Origin: a virus
Strand: one strand, 5' to 3'
Length of the DNA stretch: 29,892 nt
UHGV virus genome: UHGV-0256341
Every line of letters starts with the position of its first letter. Within the stretch, counting starts at the first letter, position 1. The position numbers and the translations under genes were made by a program. Below are positions 2,256 to 29,892 of this stretch, piece by piece. The notes below the pieces were generated by a model that did no database searches, was not told the origin of the DNA, and saw only the letters and a list, made by a program, of their open reading frames with translations.

Positions 2256-2828
2256 TCAGGGGGATTCATTGCTCTTATTTGCCGGAAATTTTCTATAAAT
2301 GGTAGAAACGCCTACATCAAAAATCAGTGCAATACGCTGTCTTGATTCTCCGGCCTCGAGTAAACGCCCAATCTGTGCCCACTGTTCGGTGGTCAACTTA
2401 GGACGGCGTCCACCTACTCTGCCTTTGGCACGAGCTGCAGCCAGCCCTGCCCTGGTACGTTCAACTATCAGTTCGCGTTCCATTTCAGCCAGGGCACCCA
2501 TGACATGAAAAAAGAAACGGCCCATTGGGGTACTGGTATCAATACTGTCAGTCAGGCTTCTGAAATTCACACCACGCTGGCGTAACTCTTCTATCAGCGT
2601 AACAAGATGCCGCATACTGCGCCCCAACCTGTCCAGCTTCCAGACAACCAGCGTGTCTCCTGCCGATAGTGTCCTGAGCAGTTTTTTCAGCCCCGGTCTG
2701 TCGGACTTAGTGCCGCTGATTTTATCCTCAAAAATCCGCTCACATCCCGCGCAGTTCAGCGCACTACGTTGCAAATCGGTGTTCTGGTCATTTGTTGACA
2801 CGCGTACATAGCCAATAAGCATGATCAT
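2256..2828 (-). CDS. Serine recombinase, DNA invertase of the Hin/Gin/Pin/Cin family
   Basis: 190 aa; N-terminal GYVRVSTNDQ with the catalytic serine context, LVVWKLDRLGRS, MGRFFFHVMGALAEMERELIVERT, and a C-terminal helix-turn-helix. Very close to the remembered Hin sequence. Confidence 0.95.
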   Translation of the reverse strand: MIMLIGYVRVSTNDQNTDLQRSALNCAGCERIFEDKISGTKSDRPGLKKLLRTLSAGDTLVVWKLDRLGRSMRHLVTLIEELRQRGVNFRSLTDSIDTSTPMGRFFFHVMGALAEMERELIVERTRAGLAAARAKGRVGGRRPKLTTEQWAQIGRLLEAGESRQRIALIFDVGVSTIYRKFPANKSNESP

Positions 2829-2849
2829 CTCCTTGAATAAAAATCGGGG

Positions 2850-3527
2850 ATGATGCCAGTTAGTCGTAATCGCTGCATTTTCTTAAACGTTGGTTTGGGA
2901 GATACAAGCGGATACGTGGGACGCCGGCTGAGTACCCGGGCTTTCGCGTCATCAGGTACGTATACCCCATCACCAGAAACAAAACGGATCAGGGTCACAA
3001 TAACGGGCGGCGGTGGCGGAGGGGGTGGCTGCCAGGCTATATCCAGTAACGAAACGTTTTTCGGTGCTGGCGGTGGGGCCGGAGGGACAGTAATCACCAT
3101 ACTGACCCCGACACAGAATAGTTATCCTGTCACTATCGGCGCAGGTGGGGCCGGCGGCGTTGGTGCGACGAACGGCCTCAAGGGCGGTGATAGCTCGTTC
3201 GGATCGGTAATAGCCCCTGGTGGTGAAGGCGGCGGAAAAGTAGGAGTCACAAACACAAACGGCGGTAACGGAGGCGTACCGAATATTGGCGATATCCGCA
3301 TCACTGGTGGAGATGGAGGCGACGGTCAGTCCGGGAATATCAGCGTCAGCGGTGAAGGCGGTGCATCGTACTGGGGAGGCGGTGGACGTGCAGGCGCTGG
3401 CGGTGGCGTTAGAGGCAGGGCATTTGGTTCAGGCGGAGGTGGTGCATACGATGCAGGTTATAGCGGAACCAGTATGACGGGCGGGAAAGGTGCTGATGGG
3501 GTTTGTATTATCGAGGAGTTTGCATAA
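2850..3527 (+). CDS. Alternative (currently unexpressed) tail-fibre C-terminal variable domain, Gly-rich
   Basis: ORF reads outward from the crossover site with GGT-TTG-GGA in the same frame as in H; glycine-rich repeats. It would only be expressed as a fusion to the constant part of H after inversion, so the listed Met start is probably not used. Confidence 0.65.
   Translation: MMPVSRNRCIFLNVGLGDTSGYVGRRLSTRAFASSGTYTPSPETKRIRVTITGGGGGGGGCQAISSNETFFGAGGGAGGTVITILTPTQNSYPVTIGAGGAGGVGATNGLKGGDSSFGSVIAPGGEGGGKVGVTNTNGGNGGVPNIGDIRITGGDGGDGQSGNISVSGEGGASYWGGGGRAGAGGGVRGRAFGSGGGGAYDAGYSGTSMTGGKGADGVCIIEEFA
2878..2903 (+). other. Invertase crossover site (hix/gix-like), distal copy next to the invertase gene
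   Basis: TTTTCTTAAACGTTGGTTTGGGAGAT, an imperfect 12-2-12 dyad. It shares the 13-mer TTGGTTTGGGAGA with an inverted copy inside the tail-fibre gene at 4673..4698. Confidence 0.6.
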
Positions 3528-3937
3528 TGAATGCGTCATATGCAGTTATTGAAAATGGGATGGTTGTGAATGTCATTGTCTGGGATGGCGAGGATGAATT
3601 CACTGTGCCGGATAATCTGCAGCTCATTAATATTTCTGATATCAGTGAGCAGCCCGGAATCGGCTGGGCGTATTCAGACGGGGTATTTACTGCGCCGCTC
3701 CCTCCGGAACGTTCTCATGATGAACTGGTAGCTGACGCTGAACAGAAAAAACAGTCGTTGATAGACGCAGCAATGGTCAATATCAGCGTGATTCAGTTAA
3801 AGCTGCAGGCCGGGCGGAAGCTGACGCAGGCAGAAACCACCCGACTTAACGCCGTGCTGGATTACATTGACGCGGTGACGGCAACAGATACCAGCACTGC
3901 GCCGGATGTCATCTGGCCTGAACTGCCGGAGGCGTAG
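3527..3937 (+). CDS. Tail fibre assembly chaperone, alternative copy (U'-like)
   Basis: The six-frame ORF is 3503..3937; the likely start is the ATG at 3527 right after the stop of the upstream variable domain. Its C-terminal region resembles that of the minus-strand copy (DTSxAPDxxWPxxP). Confidence 0.75.
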   Translation: MNASYAVIENGMVVNVIVWDGEDEFTVPDNLQLINISDISEQPGIGWAYSDGVFTAPLPPERSHDELVADAEQKKQSLIDAAMVNISVIQLKLQAGRKLTQAETTRLNAVLDYIDAVTATDTSTAPDVIWPELPEA

Positions 3938-4352
3938 GCCATTCAATATCTGGAGCACTGGAGGTATCAACCAGTTCCAGTGCGTCCAGATAATCCAGCC
4001 ACAAATTATATTGCACCAGTTCCTCACCTTTCAGACGACCAATTGATGCTTTACCTGGCCATTGTTTACTGTTGATGTATTCGTTGGCCTGATTAATCAA
4101 TTGCTGCTTTTTAGTTTCGGCTGATGCAATTTGTTCTTCACGTGTTGGTGGAGGAATATCTACCCATGCAGGCAGTCCATCTTCTCCGACACATCTGTAT
4201 TTTCCTTCTGGTGGTGTATCATAGAAATATTCCCTGAAAATTACTTCGTCTATATCAACACCTTTTTCTTCAGGCCACTCACCTTTTTCAACATAAAGAG
4301 ACTTAAGTTCGTAAGGATATGCCAGGTTGTTTACGTACAGATATTTCATCAT
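3909..4352 (-). CDS. G: Tail fibre assembly chaperone, P2 gpG-like, currently expressed copy
   Basis: 147 aa directly downstream of H with overlapping stop/start; conserved C-terminal motif shared with the plus-strand copy. Confidence 0.8.
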   Translation of the reverse strand: MMKYLYVNNLAYPYELKSLYVEKGEWPEEKGVDIDEVIFREYFYDTPPEGKYRCVGEDGLPAWVDIPPPTREEQIASAETKKQQLINQANEYINSKQWPGKASIGRLKGEELVQYNLWLDYLDALELVDTSSAPDIEWPTPPAVQAR

Positions 4353-7237: not shown

Positions 7238-7583
7238 TCTCTGCTCCTGTTGATACGGAAAGGGAAACAGGCACACCGTTATTACGCCGCCCGGTCAGTC
7301 CCACCACCATTGAACCGTCAAAATTGCTGTTAATGGTGATGGAATCCAGCGTCAGCCGTGGCTCCCAGCGACTCAGCGCCACATACACTGCCGACATGAC
7401 CTGCAGGCGTAACGCCGGATTTTGTGGCTGGTCTATCAGTGCCGACAGCAGGGAACCATATTCACGGCGAGCAATGCGGCTACCCTGCGGCGTCAGCAGA
7501 ATGTCCCGCACCGACTGGCGCAGATGGTCAATATCAGTAATGACTTTGCCGCTGGTATTGTTCATCCCGCTATAAAGCGTCAT
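7224..7583 (-). CDS. W: Baseplate wedge protein, P2 gpW-like (GPW/gp25 family)
   Basis: 119 aa between V and J. Confidence 0.8.
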   Translation of the reverse strand: MTLYSGMNNTSGKVITDIDHLRQSVRDILLTPQGSRIARREYGSLLSALIDQPQNPALRLQVMSAVYVALSRWEPRLTLDSITINSNFDGSMVVGLTGRRNNGVPVSLSVSTGAENGSD

Positions 7584-8158
7584 ACCGGGCCTCCGGTTGT
7601 ATCGCCGCCTTTCAGGACGCCAGTATGCTGATGCGCATCAACCACGATCCCGTTAGAACTCATCGCTCCGCCGCCCTGGGTAACGCCACCATTGATCACC
7701 ACTTCGCTGTTAATGCGCGTGCGGTCAGCCTCCAGTACAAACTCACTGGTTTTCATGGTGATGTTATCAGCGGCCTCAATGACCATTGATTTGATGCCCC
7801 TGACATACCAGCGCCCGGTGGCGGGTTCGTATTCAAACCAGCCACCGTCAGGATGTTCTGTCACGCAGGCGTCCGCCGACGTCGACGGTGGTGCGAACTG
7901 ATTCGAATAGACAGCGGGCAGCGCAAAGGCAGTCTCCAGATTGCCGCCCAGACTCAGCAGCACCACCTGCTCACCTTCCGATGGTCGCCACCATGTGCGG
8001 GCATTACCCGCGCGCAGCGTCAGCCAGCTGATCCAGTTGGTTTCAAGGTCGCCCGTTTTCACCCGACAAAGCCAGTTTTCCCGGTCCACTTCGGTGACTA
8101 CACCTATGCGGATCAGATTGGTGATAAGGCGCATGATTTCGGTTAGTTGTGCGTTCAT
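7580..8158 (-). CDS. V: Baseplate spike/hub protein, P2 gpV-like
   Basis: Start taken at the internal Met of MNAQLTEIMRLITNL. The 81-codon upstream extension of the 273 aa ORF runs into the AT-rich insertion and is probably not translated. Confidence 0.8.
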   Translation of the reverse strand: MNAQLTEIMRLITNLIRIGVVTEVDRENWLCRVKTGDLETNWISWLTLRAGNARTWWRPSEGEQVVLLSLGGNLETAFALPAVYSNQFAPPSTSADACVTEHPDGGWFEYEPATGRWYVRGIKSMVIEAADNITMKTSEFVLEADRTRINSEVVINGGVTQGGGAMSSNGIVVDAHQHTGVLKGGDTTGGPV

Positions 8159-8204
8159 AGATATATGATGACAGCTGAAAACTTGTTTATAACTTCTTGC
8201 AAAT

Positions 8205-8222
8205 TGTGGTATCGATGGTACA
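8205..8222. promoter_or_regulatory. Putative Ogr-dependent late promoter element (TGT-N12-ACA) upstream of V
   Basis: TGTGGTATCGATGGTACA in the V upstream region. Confidence 0.35.
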
Positions 8223-8261
8223 AATTGATAAAAGGATAAAAAACAACCAATAGGTGGATAA

Positions 8262-9068
8262 ATGAGTGTTATGAATCCAATAAGTTCTAATATATTTAAT
8301 GCTGAATTTTTAAACACCCCGGCAGCGGCACTTGCCGCATGGATTTCCATTATTGGAGCTGTTATAACTTTGGTGACGATAGTTATAAGAGCACTATTCA
8401 AATATAGAAAATCTCATGATGTAATTTTGAAAAAATCAGGAATACCTGCGTTTATATTAAATTTTTTTCTTATACGAATATCATTAAAAAGGCTGCCTAC
8501 TATCACATGGGCTGAAAAATCAATCACGGTTCTCTTTTCACTTCTTTTTTTGTGTGCAATTTATATTTTTGGTCCAGTTTTCATCCAAGCCATTAGAACC
8601 CCACCAAATAGCACATTGCTTTATTGGATAAAGTCCGGTGAATCATTTTATATGTCAAAAAAACTGGCGACTGCAGCTACAATATTAACCACTCCTGATT
8701 GGGAAATATCAAAAGATGATTGCGAAGAGTCATCCTCTGCCAGTACAGAGAAGTACAAATCATTAACTATCGAACATAAAGAAATTCTTTGTAAACTACT
8801 AACCACTGATGAAGGGAATACTTACATTGATGAAGAAGTCAAGAATTTCGTTAAAGACAAATTCTTTATCTATTCCTTTGCCCCAACAACCATATTTATT
8901 CTATTATGGATTTCTTTGGGTTTTATACTGACCATTCACTATTCTAAAAAAGTTAGGAAATATATTCTGACTGAACAAAAAAATGCAATTCATTGGGCAT
9001 ATGGTGAATTCAAGACAGAAGGAATCTATTCAATATATCACGAGTTAGAACGTAAGACTCACCATTAA
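8262..9068 (+). CDS. AT-rich moron encoding a multi-pass membrane protein of unknown function
   Basis: 268 aa with several hydrophobic helices; the region from about 8160 to 9070 is visibly lower in GC than the flanking phage genes; opposite strand to the late operon; sits at the S/V junction where P2 has orf30. Confidence 0.7.
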   Translation: MSVMNPISSNIFNAEFLNTPAAALAAWISIIGAVITLVTIVIRALFKYRKSHDVILKKSGIPAFILNFFLIRISLKRLPTITWAEKSITVLFSLLFLCAIYIFGPVFIQAIRTPPNSTLLYWIKSGESFYMSKKLATAATILTTPDWEISKDDCEESSSASTEKYKSLTIEHKEILCKLLTTDEGNTYIDEEVKNFVKDKFFIYSFAPTTIFILLWISLGFILTIHYSKKVRKYILTEQKNAIHWAYGEFKTEGIYSIYHELERKTHH

Positions 9069-9456
9069 GACCCAACAAACGACGCTCTGCGTAACGCACT
9101 TCCGGTCCTTTGCGGCTGACGCGATCGCGCAGGCCATAATGGTGAACGCGAGCAATGCGCTGCACCTTACTTTCAAACTGTACGCTGGCAGAGTCGGCGC
9201 TGGCGGCGGTTTTCAGGTATTTGGTGGTGCGCAGCTTTGCAAACATCTGACGTTTGATGCGGCCTTTTTTACTGCGCGCCGTGACCTTGCGCGGTTCATA
9301 ACTGCTGCCATCTGGATTGCGCTGCATCCTGATATTCTGCTGCTGTGTCCGGCGCAGTTCCTGCGCCAGCTGGCGCATCATGCGGCTTCTTGCGACTGGT
9401 TCCAGATTCGCCAGTAAGGCACTAAGCCAGTCGTCCACCTTCTGCAGTTCAGCCAC
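9010..9456 (-). CDS. S: Tail completion protein, P2 gpS-like
   Basis: 148 aa in the R-S order; its last ~20 codons lie inside the AT-rich insertion. Confidence 0.8.
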   Translation of the reverse strand: MAELQKVDDWLSALLANLEPVARSRMMRQLAQELRRTQQQNIRMQRNPDGSSYEPRKVTARSKKGRIKRQMFAKLRTTKYLKTAASADSASVQFESKVQRIARVHHYGLRDRVSRKGPEVRYAERRLLGLNGESYVLTRDILNRFLLS

Positions 9457-9901
9457 GTTTCACCGTCCACATTTCTTCAGGTTCATCGGGTTCTGCTACA
9501 GCTTCAACGCTCGACACACTGCCGTCAGTGCTGACCAGCACACGTTCCGTCAGATGCAGGTTAAGGCTGATATCACAGACATCGTTGCGCAGAATATCCA
9601 CCTCAAAGGTAAATAGTTTTTCCCGTAACGCCGGGTTATTGATGGCATCGGGCTGGTTATCCCGCAGCCACAGCAAAACCGGGGCCATCAGCAGATTTTG
9701 GTCGCCGCTGAAATCCTCAATCACCGCGTTCAGGGTGTAACGGTACTCCCACGACATGGAGCTGGCCCCCGTGGCAACCAGCGAACCGTTATCCACAAAC
9801 AGATGCAGTTTGTCCGGGTTATTGCGGACATAAGGCACCGCTTTATTGAGGGCGTGGCGCAGGGATTGTGGTTTGTTCACTGTTTCGCTCCTGACACGCA
9901 A
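9449..9901 (-). CDS. R: Tail completion protein, P2 gpR-like
   Basis: 150 aa following the lysis genes. Confidence 0.8.
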   Translation of the reverse strand: MRVRSETVNKPQSLRHALNKAVPYVRNNPDKLHLFVDNGSLVATGASSMSWEYRYTLNAVIEDFSGDQNLLMAPVLLWLRDNQPDAINNPALREKLFTFEVDILRNDVCDISLNLHLTERVLVSTDGSVSSVEAVAEPDEPEEMWTVKRG

Positions 9902-17384: not shown

Positions 17385-17402
17385 GAAGACCATTAGGTCT
17401 TC
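17385..17402. terminator. Hairpin between convergent Q and retron RT (possible bidirectional terminator)
   Basis: GAAGACC-ATTA-GGTCTTC stem-loop with T-rich flank; the RT stop codon lies inside the stem. Confidence 0.45.
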
Positions 17403-18355
17403 GCTTTATTTAAAGGGTTCTTTCCATATTTTTTTTCTAATTTGCTAATATAAGTTATTAATCTTCTATGGCTTTTTGAATCCACACTTAAAATAAATGA
17501 CAACCATCCCCTAACGTGTTCTATCTCAGAAGACTTACCGCAAAATATATGATGTATCTTTGCTCTAATTTCTTTATATTTTTCTCTACCTATCCCAACT
17601 TTCTCTTGTGAAATAACTAAACCTGTAACTTTCCTCTGACTACGAGGCCCACTAATACAAGTTTTTTTTGAGTTAATAACCAATCCTTCACTTGGGATTA
17701 TAGAAAATAAAAAATCACGTGCTTTAACAACCTTTTTCATAGACTGTGCAGATAAGGTGAGATCATCGGCATATCTCGTATATATCAAGCCCCGACTACC
17801 TGCATAACCCTGAATACGATAATCAAGTTTAGAACATATTAGATTAGCTAATTTAGGTGATGATGGAGCACCTTGTGGTAGCAGATTTTTATAACAACAT
17901 ATTTTTGTCAAAACTGAAGATATTAGTCGATTATAACCAAGAGAATGGAACACTCCAAAAACTTTGTTAGCAGTTAAACTTGGGAAAAAATCCTCCAAAT
18001 CAATATTCAGTATAAAGTTTGCCCCAATATGCGGGGTAGCATTATTCAAAATAGATTGGTGCTTTTCAAATCCAATAGAAAAAGGAGATGACGACAGTTT
18101 ATCTAAAATGTTACGTAGAACCCATCCTTGTAAGGCTTTAAGTTCTCGAGAAGGTTGGTAAATGGTTCTCATTCTCTTCTCTGGGCCTTTCTTTTCTACA
18201 GTGTAGATCCTATAGCGAAAATCAGCTGTATAGATTAACAACCGAAGTGTTTCAACAGATATGCGAGTCGCCTTAGACATGTCATGCAAATTGTTCATGA
18301 CAGGTAGGCCGAGATTTCTCAATCTAAAAGTGTTCAAATATTCAGCGGATTTCAT
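17393..18355 (-). CDS. ret: Retron-type reverse transcriptase (matches retron Ec86/Eco1 RT from memory)
   Basis: 320 aa with retron hallmarks: NAxxH (NATPH), LEDFFPS, PQGAPSSPKLANL, catalytic YADD and the VTG motif. It lies immediately 3' of an msr-msd element. Confidence 0.95.
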   Translation of the reverse strand: MKSAEYLNTFRLRNLGLPVMNNLHDMSKATRISVETLRLLIYTADFRYRIYTVEKKGPEKRMRTIYQPSRELKALQGWVLRNILDKLSSSPFSIGFEKHQSILNNATPHIGANFILNIDLEDFFPSLTANKVFGVFHSLGYNRLISSVLTKICCYKNLLPQGAPSSPKLANLICSKLDYRIQGYAGSRGLIYTRYADDLTLSAQSMKKVVKARDFLFSIIPSEGLVINSKKTCISGPRSQRKVTGLVISQEKVGIGREKYKEIRAKIHHIFCGKSSEIEHVRGWLSFILSVDSKSHRRLITYISKLEKKYGKNPLNKAKT

Positions 18356-18361
18356 GAAAGT

Positions 18362-18530
18362 TGCGCACCCTTACGTCAGAAAAAACGGGTTTCCTGGTTG
18401 GCTCGGAGAGCATCAGGCGATGCTCTCCGTTCCAACAAGGAAAACAGACAGTAACTCAGATTCAATGCAGGATGCCGAAACAACATCCAGAGGTTGACCT
18501 TAATGATAAACCTCTCGCTAAGGGTGCGCA
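18362..18530 (-). ncRNA. msr-msd: Retron msr-msd non-coding RNA (msDNA template)
   Basis: Perfect 12-bp terminal inverted repeats (TGCGCACCCTTA ... TAAGGGTGCGCA on the minus strand) flank a long internal palindrome (GGAGAGCATC...GATGCTCTCC); the sequence matches the Ec86 ncRNA as I remember it. Confidence 0.9.
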
Positions 18531-19441
18531 TACGGAATCTTATCATAGTTAAATGTTGATTTTCTACGGTTTTCAAAATTCATAATCTCAAGCCGCAATC
18601 GGTCAAGTGTCTTTCTATCAAAGACGCTCCTAACATAGCTAGCCCCCAAAGCAGTGACCTGATAACCATCAGTCATTTGAAGTATTTTTCGTTCATTTAT
18701 TAGACGAGAAACAACGGATCTAACAATAATTTTAGATAAAACATCATCTTGCTTTATCGCTTTAAAAGCTAGTTCACACAGTGTGCGGTAGTTGACACTA
18801 TCCAGTAAATAGATACAAGGCAATAGAAACCGCTCTGCGTATAATATATTTCCAATATCTTTTGATACTTTATTTTCTTTCCTAACCTTCTTAATAGATG
18901 CCATTAATTTTTTATATAATCGTAATTTTCTGGCAACATCAATGGATGAATCACACATTTCTTTTAGTTCATTTGAACTACAACGCAAAACAGATTTTGA
19001 ATTAAACTTACGCAACAGGCGAACAGGACCATAGTTAATAAAGCTACGTTTTGATTTAAATTTTGCATCTTGAATGCAAATCAACTTTCTCCTTAAGTTT
19101 TCATTATTAGAGAACGCACCAAGCTCTGTGAAAGACCCCGGACTTTCAGGAAATAAAATTATTACATCGACAGCTTCAGCCAGAATATTTTCTAAACTTA
19201 AAAGGCTATGCTGCCCTTGACCAGCCAAAAGATCATCAAATAGATCTTCTGGATAAAATATATCAACATCACTGAACTTTGCTAAAAATTGTGATAATTG
19301 ATGACGCCAAGATTGATGATTAGCAACGTCACCACCACATAGAAAAATGGTTATTTTAATATTAGCTCCTCGATAGAAGCCTTTCTTTGTGAGATGTCCT
19401 ATAAGCTGTTGTTGCTGCTCATCGGTAAATTTTTTATTCAT
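18518..19441 (-). CDS. Retron effector protein (NDT-like / DNA-binding type, as in retron Eco1)
   Basis: 307 aa encoded immediately upstream of msr-msd in the same operon. The N-terminal half has a Rossmann-like glycine-rich pattern consistent with a nucleoside deoxyribosyltransferase-like fold; the C-terminal half is basic. Confidence 0.8.
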   Translation of the reverse strand: MNKKFTDEQQQQLIGHLTKKGFYRGANIKITIFLCGGDVANHQSWRHQLSQFLAKFSDVDIFYPEDLFDDLLAGQGQHSLLSLENILAEAVDVIILFPESPGSFTELGAFSNNENLRRKLICIQDAKFKSKRSFINYGPVRLLRKFNSKSVLRCSSNELKEMCDSSIDVARKLRLYKKLMASIKKVRKENKVSKDIGNILYAERFLLPCIYLLDSVNYRTLCELAFKAIKQDDVLSKIIVRSVVSRLINERKILQMTDGYQVTALGASYVRSVFDRKTLDRLRLEIMNFENRRKSTFNYDKIPYAHP

Positions 19442-19716: not shown

Positions 19717-20436
19717 TTAGCCAAAGCAGAAACCAATATTGCAATTTGAAACTCCACAGTTGTGAAATTGATGTGGACCTACTCTTAGCTTGTGTTCGTC
19801 TCCTACAATCCGAGTCCCCTTAACCAACATATCTAATCTTTCCACAATCAATCTTTCAGGCGCATCAACTTTAATAATTAAACGAGGACCTTTCCTTTTT
19901 TCTATAATAGTTATTCTAGGACCGACAACCTGAACATCCCAATGCCTTGCACTACAAACCCACTCATTCTTAATTAATTCAAGATTAACAATACCTTGAC
20001 TATCGTAAAATTTACCCGAAATAAGAAAAGCATTATTTTCTTTTTCAATGGTTAACAATGGCTCATTTTGAAACATTATTGGTACAGTACAGGATTCAAA
20101 CGTCGCACCACCAAATATTATTGTTGGATGCCTATCAGAAAAGTCCAATATATCGGCCACATTCCCTTTTTGTAAGGCTGCAGGAGATTCCATTGCTTTA
20201 ATTATTTTCTCTTTAGAGTAAAGACGTTTCGTTACTTTCGCATGGCACGTAGGACAAAGTAGTGCTATTGCATTTGGAGAGTGCTCCTTTGCATCAGCGT
20301 ATGTGGGAATTACATGCTCATACTCAACAATGGGAGAAGCACAAACAACGCAACCGAAGCCACAGCGCTGCCTTACCTCCAGTTTTACAGGTTCAGGAAT
20401 TGTTCTAGATAACCCATGCTTGTTAATAGTTGTCAT
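19717..20436 (-). CDS. HNH-endonuclease-domain protein with a C-terminal domain of unknown function
   Basis: 239 aa; N-terminal CGFGCVVC ... EYEHVIP ... NAIALLCPTCH matches the HNH zinc-finger nuclease pattern. AT-rich gene located between cos and replication gene A, where P2 has old/tin. Confidence 0.75.
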   Translation of the reverse strand: MTTINKHGLSRTIPEPVKLEVRQRCGFGCVVCASPIVEYEHVIPTYADAKEHSPNAIALLCPTCHAKVTKRLYSKEKIIKAMESPAALQKGNVADILDFSDRHPTIIFGGATFESCTVPIMFQNEPLLTIEKENNAFLISGKFYDSQGIVNLELIKNEWVCSARHWDVQVVGPRITIIEKRKGPRLIIKVDAPERLIVERLDMLVKGTRIVGDEHKLRVGPHQFHNCGVSNCNIGFCFG

Positions 20437-25279: not shown

Positions 25280-25476
25280 TTGTTCCCCCGTTTTTTCGTA
25301 GATAGTTCTGCCAGCAATTCATCTTGTGAACGGCACGGATGCCAGCGTTTACCATCCTCCCCCATGATCCAGCCGTGACCCGCTGAATGAATCTGCGCCC
25401 TGAATTCTGGTAAAAAACATTATCGTAAATTACCATTTCTTTCAACAGCTTACTAGTAAACAAGAAGTTAGCCTCC

Positions 25477-27162
25477 GTGAATATAAACGTCGCCGAATTG
25501 TTAAATGGGAATTACATTCTGTTATTATTTGTGGTCCTCGCGCTTGGGCTATGTCTCGGAAAGTTACGACTTGGTTCGATCCAACTGGGTAATTCCATTG
25601 GCGTTTTAGTCGTATCGCTGTTATTAGGCCAACAACATTTCAGCATTAACACCGATGCGCTTAATCTTGGCTTTATGCTGTTTATTTTCTGTGTTGGGGT
25701 TGAAGCCGGACCGAACTTTTTTTCCATTTTTTTTCGCGATGGGAAAAATTACCTAATGTTAGCACTGGTGATGGTTGGCAGTGCGCTGGTGATCGCCTTA
25801 GGGTTAGGTAAGCTGTTTGGCTGGGATATTGGCCTGACGGCCGGTATGTTAGCAGGCTCTATGACGTCGACACCGGTTCTGGTCGGTGCTGGCGATACAC
25901 TGCGTCATTCCGGCATGGAAAGCAGGCAGCTCTCACTGGCACTGGATAATCTGAGCCTCGGGTATGCCTTAACCTATTTAATCGGTCTGGTGAGTTTGAT
26001 TGTTGGTGCGCGTTACTTGCCGAAATTGCAGCATCAGGACTTACAGACCAGCGCCCAGCAAATCGCCCGCGAACGTGGCCTGGACACTGATGCCAACCGT
26101 AAGGTTTATTTACCGGTGATCCGCGCCTATCGCGTCGGCCCGGAGCTGGTGGCCTGGACCGACGGCAAAAATCTGCGTGAACTGGGTATTTATCGACAAA
26201 CCGGCTGCTACATTGAACGTATTCGACGTAACGGGATTCTGGCAAATCCAGACGGTGATGCCGTGCTACAAATGGGCGATGAAATAGCGTTGGTAGGCTA
26301 TCCCGACGCCCATGCCCGACTCGATCCCAGCTTCCGTAACGGTAAAGAAGTTTTCGATCGTGACCTTCTCGACATGCGTATCGTCACTGAAGAAGTGGTC
26401 GTTAAAAACCATAACGCTGTAGGTAAACGTCTCGCACAACTGAAGTTGACCGATCACGGTTGCTTCCTTAACCGCGTCATTCGTAGCCAGATTGAGATGC
26501 CGATAGATGACAACGTCGTGCTTAACAAAGGTGACGTTTTACAAGTCAGCGGTGATGCCCGTCGCGTAAAAACCATCGCCGATCGCATCGGCTTTATCTC
26601 GATTCACAGCCAGGTCACTGACCTGCTGGCATTTTGCGCCTTCTTTGTTATTGGGCTGATGATCGGGATGATCACCTTCCAGTTCAGCACATTCAGTTTC
26701 GGCATGGGGAACGCTGCCGGGTTGTTATTCGCCGGAATTATGCTGGGCTTTATGCGTGCTAACCACCCGACCTTCGGTTACATTCCGCAGGGTGCATTAA
26801 GCATGGTGAAAGAGTTCGGCTTGATGGTGTTTATGGCAGGCGTTGGTCTGAGCGCCGGTAGCGGTATTAATAACGGCCTGGGCGCGATTGGCGGTCAGAT
26901 GTTGATTGCCGGATTGATTGTCAGTCTGGTGCCCGTGGTTATCTGTTTCTTGTTCGGTGCTTATGTATTGCGAATGAACCGCGCGCTGTTGTTCGGCGCA
27001 ATGATGGGCGCACGTACCTGCGCGCCGGCAATGGAGATCATCAGTGATACAGCTCGCAGTAACATCCCGGCGCTGGGCTATGCGGGCACCTATGCAATCG
27101 CCAACGTCCTGCTGACGCTGGCAGGGACAATCATCGTCATGGTATGGCCAGGATTAGGATAA
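25477..27162 (+). CDS. ybjL: Putative transport protein of the AAE (YbjL/YidE) family
   Basis: 561 aa with multiple transmembrane segments flanking a central soluble region; GC content is typical of the host chromosome; the sequence looks like E. coli YbjL from memory. Confidence 0.8.
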
Positions 27163-29289: not shown

Positions 29290-29892
29290 GCGTCGTATCC
29301 CCCCTGATCGCTGTAGTTACTCCTGGCTTTTGCCTTCAGCCTGCGTTCACGTTCATCAAGCTGGCGTGCCACCTCCCGCGCAATATCCTGCGCACTTTGT
29401 CCTGGCTGCGTCTGAATGATGATCTGCGTCGGTGCCTCAATCCGTTGAACGAGCGGCACAGTGGCTGCGCGACTCACAATTGCTTCTCCACCTTTCGCGG
29501 GAAGTGCCAAAGGGTGCAACGGTGGAAGCTCTGCTGGCGCGGCAGCAACGCCCATCATTCCGGCAACAACGGCAGCCAGTGCAGCTGTATTTCTCCGGCT
29601 GGTCACATTTGCCGGGCCGTTAACAATTTCCGGCCCGTTTTCACCGACGATGCCAAACTGCCCGCGCGGGATATACCCGCCGCTGTCATACATCCCCGCA
29701 AAGCCATATCCCCATGATGGAAAACCACCCGATGGCATCATCACTTTGCCGTCTGCATTCACCGTCGCAGGTTGCTGACGCGTCACGCTTTCCGGTAGTT
29801 TTGCCTTTGCGGCCTCTTTACTGACAATGCCGAGTTTCTCCAGCAACCAGGAAACGCCGGATTTCAGGGAGTCCAGCGGATGCATGACCATA
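29286..29892 (-). CDS. T: Tail tape measure protein, P2 gpT-like, C-terminal part only (gene runs off right edge)
   Basis: Open frame to the window edge with Ala/Gly/Pro-rich sequence; directly upstream of U. Confidence 0.7.
   Translation of the reverse strand, partial: MVMHPLDSLKSGVSWLLEKLGIVSKEAAKAKLPESVTRQQPATVNADGKVMMPSGGFPSWGYGFAGMYDSGGYIPRGQFGIVGENGPEIVNGPANVTSRRNTAALAAVVAGMMGVAAAPAELPPLHPLALPAKGGEAIVSRAATVPLVQRIEAPTQIIIQTQPGQSAQDIAREVARQLDERERRLKAKARSNYSDQGGYDA

What the first reader, a model, noticed from the sequence alone, without database searches (positions are those of the whole stretch)
8160..9070. AT-rich membrane-protein moron between V and S, apparently fused into the 3' end of S
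A 268 aa multi-pass membrane protein is encoded on the opposite strand in a clearly AT-rich block. Its stop overlaps the S gene convergently, so the last ~20 codons of S are encoded by insertion DNA. Morons of this kind often encode superinfection-exclusion or abortive-infection proteins.
Basis: partly seen in the sequence, partly recalled or inferred. Interest (0 to 1): 0.55.

Follow-up and report, generated by a model that had tools for sequence, protein, structure and literature searches.

The report
P2 prophage accessory membrane gene overlapping S
An AT-rich accessory cassette between two tail genes of a P2-like prophage encodes a real, conserved three-helix inner-membrane protein of unknown function (DUF6216, also present in E. 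coli B/BL21) whose end overlaps the end of tail gene S; it is a known kind of phage 'moron', with some new anatomical detail but no demonstrated function.

Summary
Window 8159-9068 has 31-34% G+C against 57-62% in the flanks. It holds a 268-codon ORF (8262-9068, +) that converges on S (9010-9456, -) with a 59-nt overlap. Close P2-like phages have only a 68-bp V-S spacer, so the block is dispensable and sits at the classical 'orf30' accessory-gene site. The protein is a Pfam DUF6216 member. The cassette is 100% identical in E. coli B/BL21/REL606 and present in 111 of 5426 complete E. coli genomes.

New detail:
- The left 67 bp are an AT-rich version of the Ogr-dependent V promoter, not plain insert.
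- A conserved -35/extended -10 promoter for the ORF is interleaved with the Ogr box.
- The S tail type travels with the cassette but keeps the S-family pattern.
- The ORF's overlapping C-terminal 21 residues are absent from the wider family.
- dN/dS is 0.15-0.33. The gene stays intact in decayed prophages, down to a lone gene at the ybjL-rcdA site.
- Profile comparison (E 4e-5, 70%) and matching architecture suggest remote homology to P2 Orf30.

Function is untested, and no defence, PHROG or structural match was found. Envelope-level superinfection exclusion is my best guess, at about one in three. Interest is moderate.

The parts
7580..8158 (-). Gene V (baseplate spike), 192 aa. It is the left anchor of the cassette. 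Homology to insert-free phages ends right after its ATG.
   Evidence: Pfam Phage_base_V E 6.5e-18 plus Apex motif. Annotated V in KP12 and 500465-1 is the same length. Junction alignment.
8159..8225 (-). AT-rich version of the late V-operon promoter region. It contains the Ogr/Delta-type activator box TGT-N12-ACA at 8205-8222, centred 55.5 bp upstream of the V start.
   Evidence: Box found. The same box (TGTATCAGTGCTGATACA) is at the aligned place in KP12 and 500465-1. The P2 record annotates its pV activator site 55.5 bp from the V start. G+C is 0.31.
8197..8224 (+). Putative sigma-70 promoter of the DUF6216 gene: -35 TTGCAA (8197-8202), 16-nt spacer, extended -10 TGgTACAAA (8216-8224). It is interleaved with the Ogr box on the other strand.
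   Evidence: TCTTG-AA and TGGTACAA are invariant in 8 loci, including decayed prophages that have lost V and the TGT half-site (alignment A8). Similar elements (TTGCAA/TTGCTA ... ATGATAAgAA) lie upstream of the lone genes L017 and L016. The simple consensus scan did not report it. No transcript data.
8253..8257 (+). Shine-Dalgarno-like GGTGG, 4 nt before the ATG (GGAGG in most homologous loci).
8262..9068 (+). DUF6216-family gene, 268 aa, predicted to have three transmembrane helices. Predicted topology: N-terminus out; basic loop 46-86 inside; residues 113-200 periplasmic, with a 4-strand sheet and the invariant Cys154 and Cys177; basic tail 228-268 inside.
   Evidence: Pfam PF19723 E 1.5e-11, 44.5 bits against a 27.3-bit cut-off. 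RefSeq WP_000115390.1 'DUF6216 family protein'. 32 homologue clusters. dN/dS 0.15-0.33. AlphaFold2 pLDDT 73.5, about 90 in the middle domain. Hydropathy and charge census.
9010..9068 (.). 59-nt dual-coding segment: the last 19 codons plus stop of S (- strand) and the last 19 codons plus stop of the DUF6216 gene (+ strand). The wobble position of each gene lies opposite the second codon position of the other.
   Evidence: Coordinates. G+C 0.34 against 0.62 in the next 60 nt of S. It is the most conserved part of the ORF at nucleotide level against divergent carriers (80-89%). The extension is absent from the 232-246-aa family members.
9010..9456 (-). Gene S (tail completion / virion morphogenesis), 148 aa. 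It is the right anchor. High identity to insert-free phages resumes at about 9069.
   Evidence: Pfam Phage_tail_S E 2e-38. Protein alignment A1. DNA junction alignment.

Best explanation
The block is a mobile accessory cassette at the S-V ('orf30') accessory-gene site of a P2-like prophage.

Shown:
- It replaces the 68-bp V-S spacer of close relatives.
- It consists of an AT-rich copy of the Ogr-activated V promoter, one real gene for a 268-aa DUF6216 protein on the opposite strand, and its own version of the last 19 codons of S. Those 19 codons are read antisense as the last 19 codons of the DUF6216 gene.
- The promoter region, the gene and the S tail occur together in P2-like prophages of several enterobacterial genera.
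- The gene is under purifying selection and stays intact while the surrounding prophage decays, down to a lone gene at the ybjL-rcdA attachment region.

Inferred:
- The cassette spreads as one unit, presumably by recombination within V and S.
- The protein sits in the inner membrane with three helices and exposes a roughly 90-residue, probably disulfide-bonded, domain to the periplasm.
- It is transcribed in the lysogen from a conserved -35/extended -10 promoter whose spacer is the Ogr box. Ogr binding late in lytic growth would then switch it off while switching V on. Being AT-rich, it is probably damped by H-NS.
- It benefits the lysogen rather than virion production.
- The most likely benefit is envelope-level exclusion of superinfecting phages, meaning interference with genome entry across the inner membrane, with the variable periplasmic module setting specificity.

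My confidence by layer: anatomy about 0.9; host-beneficial prophage-expressed gene about 0.7; superinfection exclusion specifically about 0.35. The single figure given for this explanation (0.45) is for the whole statement, function included.
For: - Dispensability and site: insert-free relatives and a different insert at the same place. The S-V/orf30 locus is one of three known accessory-gene sites in P2-like phages (PMC6823313, PMC3091744).
- Junctions: at the V ATG and at about 9069.
- Real gene: 32 homologue clusters at 50-99% identity; dN/dS 0.15-0.33, including copies in decayed prophages; Pfam DUF6216 above threshold.
- Survival of decay: intact prophage in Buttiauxella (L015); V/S fragments in L011, L008 and L005; only a V remnant in L012, L013 and L007; no detectable P2 remnant between ybjL and rcdA in L016 to L020. 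The 243-aa form is shared by several Franconibacter species.
- Promoter: elements are invariant even where V and the TGT half-site are gone.
- S tail: its type co-varies with the cassette.
- Overlap segment: the most conserved at nucleotide level where S is present or was recently lost (80-89%), and relaxed in a lone gene with no P2 remnant (51%).
- Topology: 9 Lys/Arg in loop 46-86 and 8 in the tail, none in the N-terminus, and two family-invariant Cys in the middle domain.
- Variable module: the central TM2-periplasmic-TM3 part is far more divergent (pN 0.48) than the ends (pN 0.12-0.21) between two allele types.
- Orientation opposite to the late operons fits prophage expression.
- One bioRxiv preprint on H-NS silencing of immunity loci mentions DUF6216 together with BL21 and P2-like. 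I could not read it.
Against: - No functional evidence of any kind.
- No hit in PADLOC, PHROGs or NCBIfam.
- The promoter is a weak consensus match (4/6 plus 4/6 plus TG) that the simple scan did not report, and there are no transcript data.
- None of 50,697 deposited phage genomes carries the gene. It is therefore unknown whether carriers with the altered S tail are viable phages.
- Retention in decayed prophages shows benefit or neutrality to the host, not what the benefit is.
- The lone short forms could also mean the gene was chromosomal first and was later captured by phages.
Confidence: 0.45

Rival explanations
1. It is an abortive-infection or toxic membrane effector. The protein would permeabilise or depolarise the inner membrane once a phage infects, killing the cell before progeny are made.
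For: It is a multi-pass membrane protein in a prophage accessory site. P2-like hot spots are rich in abortive systems (PMC9122126, PMC13586616), and this window carries a retron at the Q-A site. UniRef labels one Orf30-family relative a 'SMODS and SLOG-associating 2TM effector domain' protein. An Orf30-like gene in Dickeya lies 2 kb from Hachiman genes.
Against: It is a single gene with no recognisable sensor domain or partner. No PADLOC hit. The SLATT label was not reproduced by any Pfam or NCBIfam scan. The largest soluble domain is predicted to be periplasmic and to carry a conserved Cys pair, which suits an outward-facing role better than an intracellular trigger. The gene persists as a lone chromosomal gene without a regulator.
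Confidence: 0.15
2. It is a lysogenic-conversion gene unrelated to phages. The membrane protein would change envelope physiology, for example immunity to a periplasm-acting bacteriocin, tailocin or type VI effector, stress tolerance or colonisation.
For: The gene is retained as a lone gene at ybjL-rcdA across whole genera such as Franconibacter, which looks like domestication for a host function. The predicted periplasmic disulfide domain resembles the general layout of membrane-anchored immunity proteins (my inference). There is no defence-family match.
Confidence: 0.2
3. It is a lytic-cycle helper of the phage itself, for example a holin/antiholin-like lysis timer or an aid to tail assembly linked to S and V.
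For: It lies inside the late gene block. There is a weak Phage_holin_2_3 similarity in TM1 (E 0.037). It is physically coupled to the S tail and to the V promoter.
Against: The holin hit is far below threshold (14.5 against 28.8 bits). The gene is on the strand opposite both late operons, so late transcription is antisense to it. Close relatives do without it. It stays intact after every virion gene has been lost.
Confidence: 0.05
4. It is a non-functional chance ORF in foreign AT-rich DNA.
For: No known function, no strong consensus promoter and no terminator.
Against: An open 268-codon stretch at 33% G+C has a probability of about 1e-9. There are 32 homologue clusters of conserved length. 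dN/dS is 0.15-0.33. Cys154 and Cys177 are invariant across 42 family members. The upstream motifs are conserved.
Confidence: 0.02

Closest known systems
Pfam DUF6216 (PF19723); RefSeq WP_000115390.1 / ECB_RS04445 of the E. coli B (REL606, BL21) P2-like prophage
   Same: It is the same gene. The 1031-bp region is 100% identical in E. coli B derivatives. The Pfam match is above the gathering score.
   Different: Nothing differs in sequence. The family is known only as an annotation label with no assigned function. The window's prophage still has the K-to-N genes that are deleted in REL606.
Bacteriophage P2 Orf30 (NP_046770.1), the nonessential gene between S and V
   Same: - Same site and same orientation (opposite to S and V); similar size (261 against 268 aa); AT-rich.
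- Same predicted order of elements: TM1, basic loop, TM2, four strands, short helix with Asp-Cys, helix with Cys, long TM3 helix, basic tail.
- Profile-profile E 4.1e-5, probability 70%, over 144 columns with both invariant Cys in register.
- 5 of 21 Orf30-family members hit PF19723 below threshold.
   Different: - Pairwise BLASTP gives only E 0.043.
- P2 Orf30 itself has no Pfam hit.
- Shallow profiles gave nothing.
- P2 orf30 does not overlap S; a 71-bp spacer with an annotated terminator separates them.
- The cytoplasmic loop is longer in Orf30.
- Homology is probable, not proven.
Characterised P2 lysogenic-conversion genes old, tin and fun(Z)
   Same: They are AT-rich, nonessential, horizontally acquired genes at fixed variable sites of P2-like genomes, and they exclude other phages (PMC3091744, PMC9122126; established knowledge).
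   Different: They sit at other sites (Q-A region, Z region). They share no sequence similarity with this protein, whose function is untested.
Inner-membrane superinfection-exclusion proteins (P22 SieA, T4 Imm, HK97 gp15)
   Same: They are small prophage- or phage-encoded multi-pass inner-membrane proteins that act at genome entry (PMC10883804 for SieA; the rest from established knowledge). This is the functional model I favour.
   Different: No sequence or fold relationship was detected: no PHROG family at E 0.1 or below and no BFVD match. The resemblance is by analogy only.
Other occupants of the S-V site (Escherichia phage Cartapus CARTA_14; phage R18C ORF16)
   Same: They are single hypothetical genes on the opposite strand between V and S (PMC6823313).
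   Different: The Cartapus protein (176 aa) is unrelated (hhalign E 0.54; no Pfam hit). R18C ORF16 was not examined.

Membership tests
Pfam DUF6216 (PF19723) | Whole-protein score above the curated gathering threshold (27.3 bits) | tested here: met
   44.5 bits, E 1.5e-11, residues 72-237 against profile positions 114-265 of 270. 40 of 42 aligned relatives also match.
Accessory gene ('moron') at the P2 S-V / orf30 site | Lies between the S and V homologues of a P2-like genome and is absent from close relatives | tested here: met
   V is 7580-8158 and S is 9010-9456. KP12 and 500465-1 have a 68-bp spacer instead.
Accessory gene ('moron') at the P2 S-V / orf30 site | Base composition foreign to the surrounding phage genes | tested here: met
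   G+C 0.28-0.34 against 0.57-0.62.
Accessory gene ('moron') at the P2 S-V / orf30 site | Own expression signals independent of the late operons | tested here: inconclusive
   A conserved TTGCAA-16 nt-TGgTACAAA motif plus a Shine-Dalgarno sequence lies upstream in 8 loci, but no terminator was found and the simple scan did not report the promoter. No transcript data.
P2 Orf30 protein family | Significant sequence or profile similarity to P2 Orf30 and its relatives | tested here: inconclusive
   BLASTP E 0.043. hhalign E 0.21 with shallow profiles, 4e-4 and 35%, then 4.1e-5 and 70% with deeper profiles. 5 of 21 Orf30 relatives hit PF19723 below threshold.
P2 Orf30 protein family | Same fold | tested here: inconclusive
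   The two AlphaFold2 models have the same order of secondary-structure elements and the same Cys positions. No coordinate superposition was possible, and the BFVD search with the DUF6216 model gave no match at E 0.001 or below and none of the 50 listed hits was a P2 protein.
Superinfection-exclusion proteins of the inner membrane (SieA/Imm type) | Inner-membrane location | tested here: inconclusive
   Three hydrophobic helices and a positive-inside charge pattern. This is prediction only.
Superinfection-exclusion proteins of the inner membrane (SieA/Imm type) | Blocks genome entry of superinfecting phage while adsorption is normal | not testable with these tools
   Needs plating-efficiency and DNA-entry assays.
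Superinfection-exclusion proteins of the inner membrane (SieA/Imm type) | Homology to a described exclusion family | tested here: not met
   No PHROG family at E 0.1 or below. No BFVD structural match at E 0.001 or below.
Known anti-phage defence systems (PADLOC-DB) | Match to a model of a known or candidate defence protein | tested here: not met
   No family at E 1 or below.
SLATT (SMODS and SLOG-associating 2TM effector) domain | Match to a SLATT profile | tested here: not met
   The name appears only on one UniRef entry of an Orf30-family relative. No SLATT hit appeared in Pfam or NCBIfam scans of that protein, of 21 Orf30 relatives or of 42 DUF6216 relatives.
Phage holins (Phage_holin_2_3) | Score above the gathering threshold (28.8 bits) | tested here: not met
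   14.5 bits, E 0.037, confined to TM1.

The most novel reading that the evidence does not exclude
DUF6216 and P2 Orf30 are one old superfamily that has occupied the S-V site of P2-like phages since before the enterobacterial genera diverged. Its members would be prophage-expressed three-helix inner-membrane proteins with a fast-evolving periplasmic disulfide domain, forming a new family of superinfection-exclusion or defence proteins. Their promoter would be wired into the Ogr box, so the gene is shut off exactly when late genes turn on. Hosts would have repeatedly domesticated them as the only surviving gene of dead prophages at ybjL-rcdA. This would give a function to P2 orf30 and to a gene present in every BL21 culture.
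Probability: 0.25. Interest if true: 0.6.

Novelty: new member of a known kind. Interest (0 to 1): 0.38.

Why it matters
The S-V site is the least studied of the three classical accessory-gene sites of P2-like phages. Recent hot-spot surveys concentrated on the cos-proximal and Z/fun sites (PMC9122126, PMC13586616), and P2 orf30 has no assigned function. This cassette sits in E. coli B, BL21 and REL606, which are among the most used laboratory strains, so a phage-resistance or envelope phenotype would be easy to test and practically relevant.

The anatomy also illustrates three general points:
- An accessory gene can carry pieces of its essential neighbours with it, here a promoter and a protein tail.
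- A 59-nt antisense dual-coding segment can persist across genera.
- A prophage can decay around a single retained gene.

None of this is surprising in kind, and no function has been shown.

Tried and rejected
- PHROGs, PADLOC and NCBIfam scans of the protein gave nothing useful.
- tblastn against 50,697 phage records found no match. The plasmid collection gave only two 55-kb 'plasmids' that are P2-like genomes.
- Rfam found no RNA family in 7900-9500.
- The simple promoter/terminator scan found no site upstream of the ORF and no terminator. The promoter proposal rests on cross-locus conservation instead.
- hhalign of shallow profiles against P2 Orf30 was negative. Only the deeper alignments gave a signal.
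- The Cartapus insert is unrelated.
- The bioRxiv preprint that mentions DUF6216 could not be opened under any identifier. Only term counts were obtained.
- The accession WP_000115390 appears in no held paper.
- The 273-aa TTG-initiated extension of V into the block, and the small ORFs inside it (8648-8806 on the - strand, 8809-8931 on the + strand), were rejected as artefacts. V starts at 8158 in all relatives.
- The SLATT label and the holin hit were rejected as unsupported.
Full report
**1. The observation.**

The window is a P2-like (Peduoviridae) prophage with its late genes on the minus strand. Positions 8159-9068 form a sharp AT-rich block. G+C is 0.28-0.34, against 0.57 in V and 0.62 in the adjoining 60 nt of S.

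The block holds one long ORF, 8262-9068 on the plus strand, of 268 aa. V is 7580-8158 (Pfam Phage_base_V plus Apex) and S is 9010-9456 (Phage_tail_S, E 2e-38). The ORF stop (9066-9068) lies 59 nt inside S, so the last 19 sense codons of each gene are read from the same DNA on opposite strands.

At this composition an open stretch of 268 codons is expected with a probability of about 1e-9 (my arithmetic from the composition). Hydropathy gives three strong transmembrane segments at about 22-44, 87-110 and 203-225.

**2. It is an insertion relative to close phages, at a known site.**

Megablast against deposited phages found 49 P2-like records that match only V and S. In Klebsiella phage KP12 and Escherichia phage 500465-1, V and S are 68 bp apart. 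Phage Cartapus has an unrelated 176-aa ORF at the same place and in the same orientation.

Alignments put the left break immediately after the V start codon and the right break at about 9069, which coincides with the ORF stop.

The S-V (orf30) locus is one of three recognised accessory-gene sites of P2-like phages (PMC6823313, PMC3091744). P2 itself has the nonessential 261-aa Orf30 there, also on the opposite strand.

**3. What travels with the gene.**

The left 67 bp (8159-8225) are not plain insert. They contain a perfect TGT-N12-ACA box (8205-8222) centred 55.5 bp from the V start. The insert-free phages have the same kind of box at the aligned place. The P2 record annotates its pV activator site at the same distance. 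So the cassette brings an AT-rich version of the Ogr-dependent V promoter.

On the right it brings its own S tail:
- Window: LNGESYVLTRDILNRFLLS.
- Insert-free phages: VNDDVEAMTRDMILQWLAG. The preceding 129 residues are about 95% identical.
- Other carriers of the gene: Buttiauxella INKESYDLTLDILHRYLLS..., Serratia VNKDSIDLTLDILHRYLLS, Klebsiella aerogenes VNKESIALTLDILHRYLRL.

The carrier tails are all of one type. The tail still fits the S-family pattern, and the Pfam match runs to profile position 147 of 148. It is therefore an S-derived tail of another lineage, not random DNA.

**4. Direction of the overlap.**

A profile search of 1.84 billion representative proteins found only 50 relatives, so this is a small, enterobacterial family. 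Most distant members are 232-246 aa and end at window residue about 246. The extension GEFKTEGIYSIYHELERKTHH, which is the part that overlaps S, occurs only in the subfamily tied to the S tail (alignment A6), and the AlphaFold2 model is of low confidence there.

Two readings remain open. The ORF may have grown into the antisense of S, or the short lone forms may have been truncated after S was lost.

In the overlap, the wobble position of each gene faces the second codon position of the other. This leaves almost no silent changes. Consistent with that, the segment is 80-89% identical at nucleotide level even against carriers whose central part is only 44-50% identical. It is relaxed (51%) in a lone gene with no P2 remnant.

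**5. A real, selected gene.**

- There are 32 clusters at 50-99% identity and 262-268 aa, from Escherichia, Salmonella, Citrobacter, Klebsiella, Serratia and others.
- Nei-Gojobori dN/dS is 0.15-0.33.
- Cys154 and Cys177 are invariant across 42 family members.
- RefSeq annotates the gene as a 'DUF6216 family protein'. The region is 100% identical in E. coli B, BL21 and REL606 (ECB_RS04445, WP_000115390.1) and occurs in 111 of 5426 complete E. coli genomes, about half of them natural isolates.

**6. Survival of prophage decay.**

Contexts of homologues form a series:
- An intact P2-like prophage with V-DUF6216-S (L015).
- Prophages with fragmented V, S and R (L011, L008/L009, L005/L006, L021).
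- Only a V remnant next to ybjL (L012, L013, L007).
- A lone gene between ybjL and rcdA/ybjJ with no detectable P2 remnant (L016, L017/L018, L019/L020).

The ybjL-rcdA interval is where the E. coli B prophage sits, and the window also carries ybjL. The 243-aa lone form is shared by several Franconibacter species.

A very divergent member (21% identity) is again between V and S, overlapping S by 20 nt. The association with this phage site is therefore old. The series argues that the gene pays its way in the host, independently of virion production.

**7. Expression signals.**

The upstream 100 bp are conserved across eight loci. TCTTG-AA (-35 TTGCAA, 8197-8202) and TGGTACAA (extended -10 TGgTACAAA, 8216-8224) are invariant, separated by a 16-nt spacer, and followed by a GGAGG/GGTGG Shine-Dalgarno sequence.

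In the three loci that have lost V, the TGT half-site of the Ogr box has decayed to TAT, yet these promoter elements persist. Lone genes keep TTGCAA/TTGCTA ... ATGATAAgAA. I infer a sigma-70 promoter for the accessory gene whose spacer is the Ogr box. Ogr binding would then be expected to occlude it. This is inference only. The simple scan did not report the site, no terminator was found, and I have no transcript data.

**8. Protein architecture.**

- Charge census: 1 Lys/Arg in residues 1-45, 9 in loop 46-86, 5 in 228-247 and 3 more in the tail. This predicts N-out, loop-in, residues 113-200 in the periplasm, and tail-in.
- The periplasmic part is modelled with pLDDT about 90 as a four-strand sheet plus helices. 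It carries both invariant cysteines, which fits a disulfide.
- Between two allele types (window type against the L005/L015 type), the TM2-periplasmic-TM3 module has pN 0.48, against 0.12-0.21 at the ends. The outward-facing part is thus the variable module.

**9. Relation to P2 Orf30.**

- Pairwise BLASTP is marginal (E 0.043) and shallow profiles fail.
- Broader profiles give E 4e-4 and 35%. With 42 against 21 sequences the result is E 4.1e-5 and 70% over 144 colinear columns, with both Cys in register.
- 5 of 21 Orf30-family members hit PF19723 below threshold, and it is the only recurrent family.
- The Orf30 AlphaFold2 model shows the same order of elements.

With the identical site and orientation, I consider remote homology probable (about 0.8) but unproven.

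Orf30 differs in not overlapping S; a 71-bp spacer with a terminator separates them. Orf30 relatives also occur as lone chromosomal genes in Enterobacter, and in Dickeya one lies beside Hachiman genes.

**10. Function.**

Nothing links the protein to a described activity. There were no PADLOC, PHROG or NCBIfam matches, no informative fold match, and the UniRef SLATT label on one Orf30 relative was not reproduced.

The relevant features are the prophage accessory site, the orientation, the likely lysogen expression, the inner-membrane location with a variable periplasmic domain, and the retention in dead prophages. From these I rank the possibilities as follows:
- Envelope-level superinfection exclusion: about 0.35.
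- A non-phage envelope or immunity function: about 0.2.
- An abortive membrane effector: about 0.15.
- A lytic-cycle role: about 0.05.
- A chance ORF: effectively excluded.

A preprint on H-NS silencing of immunity loci mentions DUF6216 once, alongside BL21 (29 times) and P2-like (4 times). It could not be read, so the gene may already have been looked at experimentally.

**11. Verdict.**

The finding is real and correctly described. It belongs to a known kind: a P2 S-V accessory gene from an annotated family of unknown function.

The additions here are:
- The cassette's true limits, namely its own V promoter and its own S tail.
- The interleaved promoter.
- The dual-coding segment.
- The decay series.
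- The probable link to P2 Orf30.

Interest is moderate, because function is unknown and the class is familiar.

Noticed in passing
window 1-29892, junctions at 29892/1 and 25380/25381: The window behaves like a circle. A 239-aa minus-strand ORF (tape measure T) runs across the end-to-start joint. At 25380/25381 the P2 early region, truncated in fil, is joined to DNA 96 bp upstream of the host gene ybjL (25477-27162), followed by ogr, D, U and T. No cII, C or int is present. It could be an aberrant-excision circle or a tandem-amplification unit that carries ybjL.
   Followed up: partly
window 17393-19441 (-): Retron reverse transcriptase (RVT_1, E 2.9e-25) and a 307-aa effector at the cos-proximal Q-A hot spot. 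They are 99.7% identical to the REL606 'retron St85 family' locus. An HNH-domain ORF follows at 19717-20436.
   Followed up: partly
window 2256-3937: Resolvase-type invertase (190 aa, E 2.7e-53) next to plus-strand tail-fibre (Gly_rich_2) and tail-fibre-assembly ORFs. This is probably an invertible host-range segment. REL606 has only a fragment of the recombinase.
   Followed up: no
L026 3501-4280 (Dickeya zeae) and L024 3501-4292 (Enterobacter): Relatives of P2 Orf30 occur outside P2 prophages. In Dickeya one lies 2 kb from HamA plus helicase (Hachiman), near a type IV coupling-protein gene. In Enterobacter it is a widespread lone chromosomal gene that UniRef labels a SLATT-domain protein, a label I could not reproduce.
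   Followed up: partly
L015 about 3728-4198 (-), Buttiauxella MAG: In this otherwise intact P2-like prophage, S has lost its usual stop and runs 8 codons further into the antisense of the DUF6216 gene (tail ...HRYLLSQIHHGRNV).
   Followed up: no
L007 5257-7849 (Scandinavium sp.): In a decayed prophage at ybjL, the intact DUF6216 gene is followed by a CI repressor gene and a 662-aa AAA_15/AAA_21/DUF2813 (OLD-like ATPase) gene, and is preceded by a GIY-YIG ORF. Accessory and defence-like genes seem to be what remains.
   Followed up: no
NZ_CP148400.1 and NZ_CP148585.1 (L023): Two 55-kb records deposited as non-mobilizable E. coli plasmids contain an apparently complete P2-like genome with this cassette (99.3% protein identity), including CI and integrase. 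They may be episomal or mis-assigned prophages.
   Followed up: partly
bioRxiv 10.64898/2026.09.05.749240: The preprint 'H-NS silences antiviral immunity through 3D chromatin compaction' contains DUF6216 (1 occurrence), BL21 (29), P2-like (4) and retron (7). It may hold H-NS binding or phenotype data on this gene but could not be opened.
   Followed up: partly
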